64,000 bases of DNA from Pseudomonadota bacterium (GTDB lineage: Bacteria; Pseudomonadota; Alphaproteobacteria; RF32; CAG-239). The stretch's first letter is position 1, and every line of letters begins with the position of its first letter. The notes below the pieces were generated by a model. The model saw nothing but the letters and a program-made list of their open reading frames with translations, was not told the origin of the DNA and ran no database searches. A program made the position numbers and the translations under genes. This document shows positions 5,520 to 6,588 of this stretch, piece by piece. The stretch covers positions 1 through 64,000 of the forward strand of contig CAKJXZ020000030.1 of NCBI GenBank assembly GCA_918234285.1. The letters run 5' to 3'.

Positions 5520-5880
5520 CGACGCTTAAATAAGTATTATGTAGCGAAAGCTCTATCGGCGTCCGACGCCGTATTAAGAATTATGTACCCGTAGCTCAAT
5601 TGGATAGCCGGAGGAAGAAAAACAACCTCAAAATGTTGTTTTTCGACGACGGGCGAAGTTCCCCAACGAGCAAGGAAGCGAGAGCGTCTCGCGGCGAGTT
5701 GATGGGAACGAGTGACCGAAGCTTAAATTTACAAATGAAAAATAAAGAAAGTAAATTTAAGCAAGAGGAGGACGACGGGCGAAGACCACTTAATGAGAGG
5801 GCGCGACAGCGACAACGAATTTAGTGGACGAGTGACCGAAGCGAGCCTAAGGCGAAGCAAGAAATTGGCCTCCGACGCCA
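5520..5880 (+). repeat. Upstream partial tRNA-Arg copies interrupted by two structured modules
   Basis: TAAGAATTAT-GTACCCGTAGCTCAATTGGATAG (tRNA 5' part at 5585-5607), then modules at 5608-5863, then the anticodon arm ATTGGCCTCCGACGCCA (5864-5880). A more degenerate copy lies at about 5520-5571. Confidence 0.85.
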
Positions 5881-5892
5881 TATAAGAATTAT

Positions 5893-5969
5893 GTACCCGT
5901 AGCTCAATTGGATAGAGTATTGGCCTCCGACGCCAAAGGTTGCGAGTTCGAACCTCGCCGGGTACGCCA
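5893..5969 (+). tRNA. tRNA-Arg (CCG)
   Basis: Cloverleaf GTACCCG/CGGGTAC acceptor, GCTC/GAGT D-stem, TTGGC-CTCCGAC-GCCAA anticodon arm, GCGAG-TTCGAAC-CTCGC T-arm, G-CCA; 77 nt. Confidence 0.97.
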
Positions 5970-6007
5970 ATAAAAAAATCCCCCACAGCGGGGATTTTTT
6001 TATTGGC
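5966..6007 (+). terminator. Terminator-like long inverted repeat after the tRNA
   Basis: GCCAATAAAAAAATCCCC-cacagc-GGGGATTTTTTTATTGGC. Confidence 0.8.
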
Positions 6008-6037
6008 ATATTCGGTGGTGGAGAACGAGCAACCTTT

Positions 6038-6588
6038 AGGTTGCGCGCGAGGATAAAAACAGCCTCTAAATGCTGTTTTTACCGCAAGCGGCGAAGTTTT
6101 CTTAATGAGCAAGGGATGCAAAGCGACCGCAGCGAATTTAGAAAACGAGTGACTGAAGCGACACGAATGTGTCGCAAGAACGAACCTCGCCGGGCTTAAT
6201 ATCTGAAAACAATCTCAAAATGTTGTTTTCGGGTATTAAGGCGAAGTGAACGAGCCGAGCTAACAAGCGATAGTGCCGTGCGGCAAGGCCGTGAACGAGT
6301 GACCGAAGCGACACGAATGTGTCGCAAGAACGAACCTCGCCGGGCTTAATATCTGAAAACAACCTCAAAATATTGTTTTCGGGTATTAAGGCGAAGTGAA
6401 CGAGCTGAGCTAACAAGCGATAGTGCCGTGCGGCAAGGCCGTGAACGAGTGACCGCAGCGAGCCACAGGCGAAGCAAGACGCCATAAAATCCCCCGATAT
6501 GGGGGAATTTTTTATTGGAATAACGCGAAGTGAGAAGAACCTCGCCGGAATAAAAAAAAATAAACCGGAACGATGAACGAGTGACCGC
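6038..6588 (+). repeat. Downstream tRNA-Arg 3' fragments interleaved with structured modules, including a 150-bp tandem duplication
   Basis: tRNA pieces AGGTTGCG (6038), CGAACCTCGCCGGG (6181, 6331), ACGCCA (6479) and GAACCTCGCCGG (6537). Core CGAGTGAC at 6146, 6296, 6446 and 6578. Confidence 0.9.

What the first reader, a model, noticed from the sequence alone, without database searches (positions are those of the whole stretch)
5608..6478. Module has an invariant single-stranded core and three covarying stems
Seen: consensus H1-GCGAAG-H2-CGAGTGAC(C/T)G(A/C)A-H3-AAG, with CGAGTGAC at 5709, 5829, 6146, 6296, 6446 and 6578. H1: AAAACAAC/GTTGTTTT versus AAAACAGC/GCTGTTTT (compensatory change) around a conserved CTC(A/T)AAAT loop; 6195-6240 extends it to 18 bp. 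H2: TTCCC/GGGAA, CCACT/AGTGG, TTTTCT/AGAAAA. H3: GCTTAAATTTAC/GTAAATTTAAGC, GCGACAC/GTGTCGC, GCC/GGC. Stem sequences change while pairing and linkers are kept, which indicates selection on structure rather than neutral duplication. Inference: a protein-recognised RNA or ssDNA fold, possibly catalytic. GCGAAG(C) is also the known extra-stable DNA mini-hairpin motif, so ssDNA function is possible.
Basis: partly seen in the sequence, partly recalled or inferred. Interest (0 to 1): 0.8.

Follow-up and report, generated by a model that had tools for sequence, protein, structure and literature searches.

The report
Structured repeat that invades tRNA hairpins
The repeated module is real: it is a roughly 130-160 base, three-hairpin element found in many copies in small gut Alphaproteobacteria, sits inside loops of tRNA-derived hairpins next to intact tRNA genes, matches no catalogued RNA family, and behaves like a small mobile element.

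Summary
The window carries four full modules (M), one M that lacks its own first hairpin, and a remnant around tRNA-Arg(CCG) (5893-5969). A covariance model finds 24 copies in this 2.0 Mb genome and 0-33 per genome in 50 congeners. On 120 distinct copies, 92.4% of modelled pairs are standard against 70.6% when shuffled, and 26 of 30 pairs show compensatory changes.

M lies inside tRNA-derived sequence, either in a T loop, D loop or anticodon loop, or in other hairpin loops. These sit in tandem units built as: intact tRNA, terminator, antisense T arm, sense T stem, M, tRNA 3' end, terminator.

Two filled/empty comparisons show clean insertion into a hairpin loop. There is no target duplication, no terminal inverted repeats, and 2-3 bases are replaced. 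M occurs in either orientation and forms head-to-tail arrays.

Rfam 15 has no match. TnpB, Y1 transposase and RtcB were not found in this genome. Reverse transcriptase and IS110 transposase do not track M among congeners.

Best reading (0.5): a new family of non-autonomous, structure-dependent insertion elements that target hairpin loops. The mobilising activity is unknown. Transcription, protein binding and catalysis are untested.

The parts
5531..5574 (+). Degenerate module-less unit: leader-like bases plus a decayed copy of the tRNA-Arg 5' part and anticodon arm
   Evidence: Direct repeats D5 and D9. The same decayed unit is seen in G001 at locus L012.
5575..5607 (+). Copy of the 13 bases upstream of tRNA-Arg plus tRNA positions 1-20 (acceptor 5' strand, D stem and most of the D loop)
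   Evidence: 100% identical to 5883-5915 (D5). Flank alignment covers tRNA-Arg(ccg) positions 1-23 and abuts M.
5608..5766 (+). Module M_A: P1, H1, GGCGAAG, H2, CGAGTGACCGAAGC, long H3, AAGA. It is inserted in the D loop of the partial tRNA copy.
   Evidence: Covariance-model matches; sequence; H3 arms I5.
5767..5862 (+). Module M_B: lacks its own H1, has P1 3' strand-like bases, GGCGAAG, short H2, the core and a short H3
   Evidence: Covariance-model match at 5761-5862. The same double arrangement is seen in L140.
5863..5892 (+). Copy of the tRNA-Arg anticodon arm (positions 27-43), then the upstream leader of the real gene
   Evidence: D9; upstream sense hit at positions 27-43.
5893..5969 (+). 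Intact tRNA-Arg(CCG) gene
   Evidence: ARAGORN; Rfam tRNA 67.1 bits.
5958..6037 (+). Terminator hairpin extended into a long palindrome: the tRNA 3' end, the terminator, then an imperfect antisense copy of the tRNA 3' half
   Evidence: Inverted repeats I3 (5958-5983/5990-6015) and I4 (5935-5949/6023-6037).
6038..6045 (+). Sense copy of the variable-loop and T-stem 5' bases that leads into M_C
   Evidence: Sequence read against the tRNA.
6046..6179 (+). Module M_C, in the T-loop position of a partial sense copy of the tRNA 3' half
   Evidence: Covariance-model match, 104.6 bits; fold; downstream flank equals tRNA positions 57-70.
6180..6194 (+). Copy of the tRNA-Arg T-loop 3' part, T-stem 3' strand and start of the acceptor 3' strand
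   Evidence: D7/D8.
6195..6329 (+). Module M_D, with H1 extended to about 19 bp and no P1 internal loop
   Evidence: D1; covariance-model match; fold z = -4.8.
6330..6344 (+). Second copy of the tRNA 3' fragment
   Evidence: D7/D8.
6345..6479 (+). Module M_E, 97% identical to M_D
   Evidence: D1; covariance-model match.
6480..6518 (+). Last 5 bases of the tRNA (CGCCA) plus a second copy of the terminator
   Evidence: D11 and D15.
6519..6590 (+). Decayed remnant: a T-arm-like hairpin plus GCGAAG and CGAGTGAC without H1 or H3
   Evidence: The orthologous remnant in G007 and G009 is shown.

Best explanation
M is a member of an undescribed family of small (about 125-165 nt), non-autonomous insertion elements whose structure is conserved. 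The family is confined to a few families of small-genome gut and rumen Alphaproteobacteria.

One strand, the + strand in this window, folds into three arms. The first is P1 with an internal loop, topped by hairpin H1. The second is H2, which carries conserved internal loops. The third is H3, which varies in length. The arms are held together by nearly invariant bases (GGCGAAG, CGAGUGACCGAAGC, GCAAGA).

New copies land in the loop of an existing stem-loop, replace 2-3 loop bases and duplicate no target sequence. Favoured targets are the T loop, D loop and anticodon loop of tRNA-derived sequence, on either strand. Because a hit in an essential tRNA would be lethal, the copies that survive sit in partial tRNA duplicates. 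These flank the intact gene as tandem units in the order: tRNA, terminator, antisense T arm, sense T stem, M, tRNA 3' end, terminator. Arrays then grow and shrink by unequal recombination.

Shown here: the fold and its covariation, the multi-copy and patchy distribution, the tRNA-hairpin context, the clean insertions and the tandem arrays.

Inferred: that the folded single strand (RNA or ssDNA) is what an unidentified trans-acting activity recognises; that transcripts arise mainly by read-through from tRNA promoters; and that the element is selfish rather than useful to the host.
For: Family and fold:
- Model R1 finds 24 copies in G000. 45 of 50 genomes of the genus have a match, at 0-33 copies each.
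- 4 of 151 class-wide genomes have a match, G000 included.
- The two-motif pattern hit many gut and rumen Alphaproteobacteria MAGs.
- On 120 distinct copies, 92.4% of cells pair against 70.6% when shuffled. 26 of 30 pairs show changes on both sides. The covariation score is 0.482 against 0.121, with 0 of 500 shuffles reaching it, and slid controls give 0.04-0.06.
- G:U outnumbers A:C 47 to 23.

Context (100 copies classified):
- 31 have a sense tRNA 3' part (from position 53-61) abutting the M 3' end; 22 of these also have an antisense tRNA hit upstream.
- 8 are in the reverse orientation in the same slot.
- 11 follow tRNA positions 1 to about 23.
- 4 follow tRNA-Pro position 37/38.
- 20 have other tRNA-like flanks and 26 have none.
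- In the control, 1 of 300 random windows met the first criterion.
- In G000, 19 of 45 tRNA genes carry a downstream antisense and/or sense copy of their own 3' half around an insert.

Insertions:
- G041 holds an intact tRNA-Pro(TGG) at C12. A homologous locus at C5 has M in the anticodon loop, with 3 bases replaced.
- The G000 C14 copy sits in the loop of a hairpin that is intact in G047 and G001, with no target duplication.
- G007 and G009 differ by one unit downstream of tRNA-Arg. G020 and G022 have the same L28-tRNA-Arg locus without any module.

Arrays:
- Four head-to-tail copies with a 129-nt period lie in one T-loop slot, and three with a 162-nt period lie in another.
- Contig joints in other samples suggest an extra 308-nt unit and units that are skipped (weak evidence).

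An integrase island inserted in tRNA-Ser split that tRNA from an older terminator-antisense-M unit.
Against: - No mobilising enzyme was found. TnpB (PF07282), Y1 transposase (PF01797) and RtcB are absent from G000, which is 100% complete. RT occurs in 10 of 50 congeners and IS110 transposase in few (the tally says 6 of 50, but the table lists 7 genomes with a match), and M-rich genomes such as G001, G007, G054 and G055 have neither.
- Conservation of internal loops and of GNRA-like loops goes beyond what DNA transposons usually need. It fits a working RNA at least as well.
- No model given here explains the antisense tRNA segment or the locus-specific terminator copy in each unit.
- A short form sits after tRNA-Gly(CCC) in G000 and in three M-poor congeners (G004, G012, G061). 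That could mean the host retains it.
- One copy stands alone, with an extended -10-like TGATATAAT read by eye and a terminator, like an ordinary sRNA gene. The promoter scan itself did not flag it.
- The covariation counts were made on an alignment fitted to the model.
Confidence: 0.5

Rival explanations
1. M is a working small-RNA domain, either a protein-binding scaffold or a ligand-binding junction. The host displays it on a tRNA-derived hairpin: the antisense and sense tRNA pieces form a closing stem, and the copied tRNA 3' end plus terminator give it a stable end. It is made by read-through from strong tRNA promoters or, in some copies, from its own promoter. The tRNA-derived flanks could also act as guides or processing signals.
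For: - Internal-loop and junction bases are nearly invariant while helices covary.
- The flanks of M pair with each other in tRNA and non-tRNA contexts.
- Each unit ends in a terminator.
- There is a stand-alone copy with a terminator-like site.
- The slot after tRNA-Gly(CCC) is occupied in G000 and in three M-poor congeners (G004, G012, G061).
- 46 of 54 copies with a clear tRNA context are co-oriented with the tRNA-derived flank.
Against: - Copy number runs from 0 to 33 among congeners, with 0 in five genomes (four of them at least 90% complete).
- 8 copies are reversed in the same slot.
- Insertions are polymorphic at otherwise conserved loci.
- Head-to-tail arrays occur.
- At least one other unrelated module family uses the same slot.
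- No expression data exist.
Confidence: 0.22
2. M is an RNA-level element: a new small self-cleaving or self-splicing ribozyme, or a protein-spliced intron. It enters exposed RNA loops, and the genomic copies are DNA records of those events. On this reading the copy in tRNA-Pro(TGG) is a true tRNA intron at the canonical 37/38 position.
For: - A full-length tRNA-Pro(TGG) is interrupted exactly in the anticodon loop. ARAGORN calls a 136-nt intron at 37/38.
- Insertion points are hairpin loops, which are single-stranded in RNA.
- The junction core is conserved, as in small ribozymes.
- Head-to-tail multimers occur.
- There is a G:U bias.
Against: - Only 1 of 102 copies tested restores a whole tRNA when removed in silico, and the start-point finder used in that test was imperfect.
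- The same MAG has an intact tRNA-Pro(TGG).
- No Rfam ribozyme or intron family matches at E up to 10.
- M is shorter than any group I intron I can recall.
- RT is missing from most M-rich genomes, and RtcB is missing from G000.
- Reversed copies exist.
Confidence: 0.1
3. The units are leftovers of integrase-mediated integration at tRNA genes, that is, stacked attL/attR scars of genomic islands. M would then be a conserved end of those islands.
For: - Direct repeats of tRNA 3' ends lie after tRNA genes.
- Two cargo genes of unknown family lie between units after tRNA-Phe.
- G000 has 12 tyrosine-recombinase matches.
Against: - At tRNA-Ser, a real integrase island is bounded by a plain 17-nt repeat of the tRNA end. 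The terminator-antisense-M unit lies outside it and is older.
- M also sits in D loops, in non-tRNA hairpins and in head-to-tail arrays.
- There is no overlap-region duplication at the junctions.
Confidence: 0.03

Closest known systems
Non-autonomous hairpin elements of the IS200/IS605 world (PATEs) and REP/REPIN elements moved by RAYT transposases (recalled, not from a call)
   Same: They are short, multi-copy and have no ORF. They lack classic terminal inverted repeats and leave no target duplication. They have hairpins near both ends, their stems keep pairing through compensatory change, and they act as folded single strands.
   Different: No Y1 transposase was found in G000. The bases 5' of M share only a final G rather than a fixed 4-5 nt target. 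M has a third, long arm and conserved internal loops, and it lands inside hairpin loops.
Insertion sequences that target the loops of REP palindromes, such as IS1397 (recalled)
   Same: Insertion goes into the loop of an existing palindrome.
   Different: Those are autonomous DDE elements with inverted repeats and target duplications. M has neither.
Rickettsia palindromic elements and the rhizobial, enterobacterial and pneumococcal mosaic repeats (RPE, RIME, BIME, BOX) (recalled)
   Same: They are structured selfish repeats, some of them in Alphaproteobacteria. They are modular and mosaic, their copy number varies between relatives, and no transposase is known for them.
   Different: M has a defined three-arm fold with an invariant junction, and a strong preference for tRNA-derived hairpin loops. 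No sequence relation to these families was tested.
Bacterial group I introns in tRNA anticodon loops, and archaeal tRNA introns at canonical and non-canonical positions (recalled; review listings seen only)
   Same: A structured insert interrupts tRNA sequence at 37/38, in the D loop or in the T loop.
   Different: There is no group I core and no Rfam match. Nearly all hosts of M are tRNA fragments rather than genes. No splicing endonuclease or ligase was identified.

Membership tests
Any Rfam 15 family | A match to a curated covariance model | tested here: not met
   Only tRNA matched at 4500-7500 (E up to 1). Nothing credible matched on 6040-6200 (E up to 10). Five other loci that hold the module families also gave only tRNA.
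IS200/IS605-derived PATE | A Y1 (HUH) transposase in the genome | tested here: not met
   PF01797 gave 0 matches in G000, which is 100% complete. The control rang in 6 of 14 genomes.
IS200/IS605-derived PATE | Insertion 3' of one fixed tetra- or pentanucleotide | tested here: not met
   The bases before M differ between copies (for example TGTG, TGGG, ATAG, GGGG, GTCG) and share only the last G.
IS200/IS605-derived PATE | Subterminal hairpins at both ends, no inverted repeats, no target duplication | tested here: met
   H1 starts about 10 nt from the 5' end and H3 ends 4 nt from the 3' end. There is no duplication at two filled/empty sites.
Classic MITE | Terminal inverted repeats and a target-site duplication | tested here: not met
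   The ends (CCGGAGG... and ...GCAAGA) are not inverted repeats. Filled/empty pairs show 2-3 bases replaced and none duplicated.
TnpB/IscB omega-RNA or IS110 bridge RNA | The partner nuclease or recombinase encoded in the genome | tested here: not met
   PF07282 gave 0 matches in G000. PF01548 gave 0 in G000 and matches in few of the 50 congeners (tally 6; table lists 7), none of them the M-richest. IscB itself was not searched.
Group I intron | A conserved P3-P9 core detectable by RF00028 | tested here: not met
   No match.
tRNA intron of any kind | Interrupts an otherwise complete and needed tRNA gene and is removed from the RNA | tested here: inconclusive
   1 of 102 copies restores a tRNA when removed in silico. 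That genome also has an intact copy. Removal from RNA is not testable with these tools.
Retroelement | A reverse transcriptase that co-occurs with the element | tested here: not met
   RT is present in 10 of 50 congeners and absent from M-rich G001, G007, G054 and G055. The one RT in G000 lies next to a weak, below-cutoff DUF6273 match; I read the pair as diversity-generating-retroelement-like from recall.
Integrase att-site remnant | Lies at the boundary of an island next to an integrase | tested here: not met
   The tRNA-Ser island is bounded by a plain 17-nt repeat, and the M unit lies outside it.

The most novel reading that the evidence does not exclude
M is the genomic trace of a new class of small catalytic or protein-assisted RNA element that enters exposed RNA hairpin loops. 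Its targets are the D, anticodon and T loops of tRNAs. The copy at position 37/38 of tRNA-Pro(TGG) would then be the first bacterial tRNA intron that is not group I. The same element would link mobile RNAs to the scattered intron positions and split tRNAs known from archaea.
Probability: 0.1. Interest if true: 0.95.

Novelty: new variant of a known kind. Interest (0 to 1): 0.7.

Why it matters
The structure has strong statistical support, and three literature searches and the whole of Rfam 15 turned up nothing like it. If it is what it appears to be, it is a compact structured element that colonises tRNA hairpin loops and builds ordered arrays of tRNA fragments around about two fifths of the tRNA genes of a 2 Mb genome, with no recognisable transposase.

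This matters for four reasons:
- It gives a concrete system for asking how hairpin loops are recognised and invaded in bacteria.
- These repeats break assemblies of gut Alphaproteobacteria and create pseudo-tRNA fragments that could confuse annotation.
- The conserved junction and internal loops are a ready candidate for a new protein-binding or catalytic RNA motif.
- The element offers a bacterial parallel to tRNA introns and tRNA-derived repeats in other domains.

Tried and rejected
- Rfam scans gave nothing beyond tRNA.
- The pattern scan of viral contigs gave 7 loci. All are the same coding stretch of one phage, with no H1 or H3, so I read them as chance.
- About 38 of the 116 genome contigs pattern loci are GC-rich non-alphaproteobacterial records without the hairpins. 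I treated them as chance and left them out of later counts.
- Sequencing runs: no RNA holder was listed. Laying four DNA contig sets gave only fragmented unitigs across the repeats. A few joints may reflect changes in array length, and others come from other copies in the genome.
- Literature searches (listings and abstract starts only) found no description of such an element.
- Rolling-hairpin (zig-zag) copying as the origin of the sense/antisense units: rejected. Successive terminators are direct copies with the same loop orientation, not reverse complements.
- Island-end model: rejected at tRNA-Ser.
- Integron-like G|TT crossover: rejected, because no TT remains on either side of M in T-loop copies.
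- Small ORF in H2: the frame is not kept between copies and H2 lengths differ by non-multiples of three.
- Likeness by eye of the second module family to a hammerhead core: one base short and no GAAA, so dropped.
- Candidate mobilising enzymes did not track M: TnpB, Y1, IS110, RT, RtcB.
- The two cargo proteins between units after tRNA-Phe match nothing in Pfam, PADLOC or NCBIfam.
- The promoter scan did not flag the stand-alone copy. Only an extended -10-like word read by eye supports a promoter there.
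Full report
**What is in the window**

The stretch between the ribosomal protein L28 gene (5095-5382, minus strand; TIGR00009) and the next gene (6591-7385, minus strand) has no convincing ORF. It holds one intact gene, tRNA-Arg(CCG) at 5893-5969.

With one unrelated site that makes 7 in the window against 0.84 expected, and 0 of 100 shuffles reached 7.

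I call the module M and read it as follows:
- a short helix P1 with an internal loop, topped by hairpin H1;
- the bases GGCGAAG;
- a long arm H2 with conserved internal loops;
- the bases (A/C)CGAGTGACCG(A/C)AGC, whose last two bases open hairpin H3;
- a tail AAGA.

There are four full copies (5608-5766, 6046-6179, 6195-6329, 6345-6479). A fifth copy (5767-5862) uses the preceding H3 in place of its own H1. A decayed remnant lies at 6519-6590.

**The fold is under selection**

The two-motif pattern occurs 10 times in the window's own 2.0 Mb genome, and 0 times when read backwards. Most are gut or rumen MAGs titled Alphaproteobacteria, Rhodospirillales or similar. The GC-rich records of other phyla lack the hairpins, and I treated them as chance.

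I built covariance model R1 from 13 copies with a hand-drawn structure of 30 pairs. I then searched 97 sources: the window, 7 loci from congeners, 78 of the 116 pattern loci and 11 own-genome loci. This gave 123 matches, 120 of them distinct.

On that alignment:

| Measure | Observed | Control |
|---|---|---|
| Cells forming standard pairs | 92.4% | 70.6% when partners are shuffled |
| Pairs with changes on both sides | 26 of 30 | |
| Covariation score | 0.482 | 0.121 shuffled (0 of 500 reach it); 0.04-0.06 when partners are slid |

The alignment was fitted to the model, which favours the structure, but the margin is large. An unfitted MAFFT alignment of 70 copies already showed H2 covarying. 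In the 13-copy alignment, one P1 position (C or T) tracks its partner (G or A) in 13 of 13 sequences.

The three pairs joining GGCG to UG(A)CC almost never vary (none shows a change on both sides), so they are neither supported nor contradicted. G:U outnumbers A:C by 47 to 23, and one G:U pair is kept in 113 of 116 copies. The strand that folds is therefore the + sense strand, as RNA or as single-stranded DNA.

Rfam 15 has no family for M.

ARAGORN finds 40 tRNA genes and a permuted tmRNA in the genome. The permuted tmRNA and the record titles fit an alphaproteobacterium.

M copies lie next to tRNA genes for Arg, Phe, Asp, Pro, Thr, Val and Gly. The flanks of M are themselves pieces of the neighbouring tRNA.

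I classified 100 copies by local alignment of their flanks to 123 tRNAs from the same sequences. Loci judged chance, and one duplicate record, were dropped first. The classes were:

| Flank class | Copies |
|---|---|
| Followed at once by the sense tRNA from position 53-61 to the CCA end (22 of these are also preceded by an antisense copy of the T-arm region) | 31 |
| Reverse orientation in the same slot | 8 |
| Follows tRNA positions 1 to about 23, that is, in the D loop | 11 |
| Follows position 37/38 of tRNA-Pro | 4 |
| Other tRNA-like flanks | 20 |
| No tRNA-like flank | 26 |

Of 300 random 50-nt windows, one met the first criterion.

The common unit reads: intact tRNA, intrinsic terminator, imperfect antisense copy of the tRNA 3' half, a few sense bases of the T stem, M in place of T54-T55, the rest of the tRNA 3' end with CCA, and the terminator again. 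The unit then repeats.

In the window, the downstream side shows this unit. The upstream side shows the D-loop version: leader, tRNA 1-23, M_A and M_B, anticodon arm, then the real gene.

In G000, 19 of 45 tRNA genes have such a downstream antisense and/or sense copy of their own 3' half around an insert. Many of these inserts belong to a second, unrelated module family of about 90 nt, which sits a few bases further into the T loop.

**M behaves as an insertion**

- *Copy number.* It runs from 0 to 33 among 50 genomes of the genus, and only 4 of 151 class-wide genomes have a match.
- *tRNA-Arg locus.* The L28-tRNA-Arg locus has no module in G020 and G022. It has two upstream units in G009, and one upstream plus one downstream unit in G007.
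- *tRNA-Pro in G041.* One locus has an intact tRNA-Pro(TGG). A homologous locus has M in the anticodon loop, with three bases replaced and nothing duplicated.
- *Hairpin in contig C14.* M lies in the loop of a hairpin that is uninterrupted in G047 and G001. The stem of that hairpin itself covaries between genomes. Again two or three loop bases are replaced and nothing is duplicated.
- *Ends and arrays.* M has no terminal inverted repeats. It occurs head to tail, four copies at a 129-nt period in one T-loop slot and three at 162 nt in another. Contigs from other samples suggest an extra copy of the 308-nt upstream unit and variants with units missing (contig evidence only).
- *Order of events at tRNA-Ser.* A genuine integrase island inserted in tRNA-Ser is bounded by a plain 17-nt repeat and has pushed an older terminator-antisense-M unit 8 kb away. 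The units are therefore not island ends.

**What moves it is unknown**

TnpB, Y1 transposase and RtcB are not found in G000. The single reverse transcriptase in G000 sits next to a weak, below-cutoff DUF6273 match; I read the pair as diversity-generating-retroelement-like from recall. RT occurs in 10 of 50 congeners and IS110 transposase in few (tally 6; table lists 7), and neither is in the M-richest genomes. Tyrosine recombinases are present, with 12 matches, but the junctions show no overlap duplication.

The origin of the antisense tRNA segment and of the locus-specific terminator copies is also unexplained. A rolling-hairpin model fails because successive terminators are direct copies. 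My guess, which is inference only, is that hairpin-driven template switching and unequal recombination create and homogenise partial tRNA copies. Only insertions into such dispensable copies would then survive.

**Rivals**

*Host-useful RNA domain displayed on a tRNA-derived stem.* The invariant internal loops, the pairing of the flanks, the terminators, a stand-alone copy and retention of a short form after tRNA-Gly(CCC) in G000 and three M-poor congeners all fit this. Reversed copies, absence from some congeners and polymorphic insertions argue against it.

*Ribozyme or intron.* This rests on the one interrupted full-length tRNA-Pro and on the choice of loops as targets. Only 1 of 102 copies restores a tRNA when removed in silico, and no RNA data exist: no RNA holder was listed.

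**Verdict**

The inference of structural selection is supported. Catalysis and protein binding are untested.

What is there is a new family of small structured elements that sit in hairpin loops, above all tRNA-derived ones. They behave like non-autonomous mobile repeats whose mobilising activity is unknown.

Noticed in passing
G000 contigs C22:25.3-25.6k, C3:80.7-80.9k, C30:112.85-113.05k and others; locus L160: A second structured module family of about 85-95 nt occupies the same slot after many tRNA genes. It starts GCCAAGCGAAAG..., contains GATGAG, and ends ...GCGAAGGAC. It is inserted after TTCGA of the copied T loop. It has no Rfam match.
   Followed up: partly
G000 C58:18300-22500 (locus L147): After tRNA-Phe, four M units bracket two genes (428 aa and 331 aa) that match nothing in Pfam, PADLOC or NCBIfam. 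One unit has a Phe-derived 5' flank and an Ala-like 3' flank, which suggests recombination through M.
   Followed up: partly
G000 C30:74600-82577 (locus L154; beyond the window): A genomic island of about 8 kb with tyrosine-recombinase genes is integrated in the 3' end of tRNA-Ser(CGA). It is bounded by a 17-nt direct repeat of the tRNA end.
   Followed up: partly
G000 C14:55640-55900, C36:21950-22350, C63:1460-1800: Further families of structured intergenic repeats lie downstream of genes, and M is sometimes nested in their loops. One is a hairpin whose stem covaries between genomes; another is a repeated word ending ...CATTCTCCGGATTTTTA.
   Followed up: no
G041 contigs C5 and C12 (loci L158, L159): One MAG holds two versions of the same tRNA-Pro(TGG) locus, with about 85% similar downstream genes. 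This is either a duplication or two strains binned together, and it bears on whether the interrupted tRNA is needed.
   Followed up: no
G000 C27:8233-11841 (locus L030): The only reverse transcriptase in the genome (343 aa) lies next to an ORF with a weak DUF6273 match (below the curated cut-off); I read the pair as diversity-generating-retroelement-like from recall.
   Followed up: partly
G042:C67:2443-4034: A 425-aa reverse-transcriptase ORF lies about 800 nt from an M copy. This may be coincidence.
   Followed up: no
G000 C3:130832-131147: ARAGORN calls a permuted (two-piece) tmRNA gene with tag ANDNFAPVAVAA. This is consistent with an alphaproteobacterium.
   Followed up: no
G000 C30:114700-115000 (locus L153 4700-4990; beyond the window): A stand-alone M copy sits outside any tRNA context. 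It is preceded by an extended -10-like word (read by eye; the scan did not flag it) and followed by a terminator-like hairpin.
   Followed up: partly
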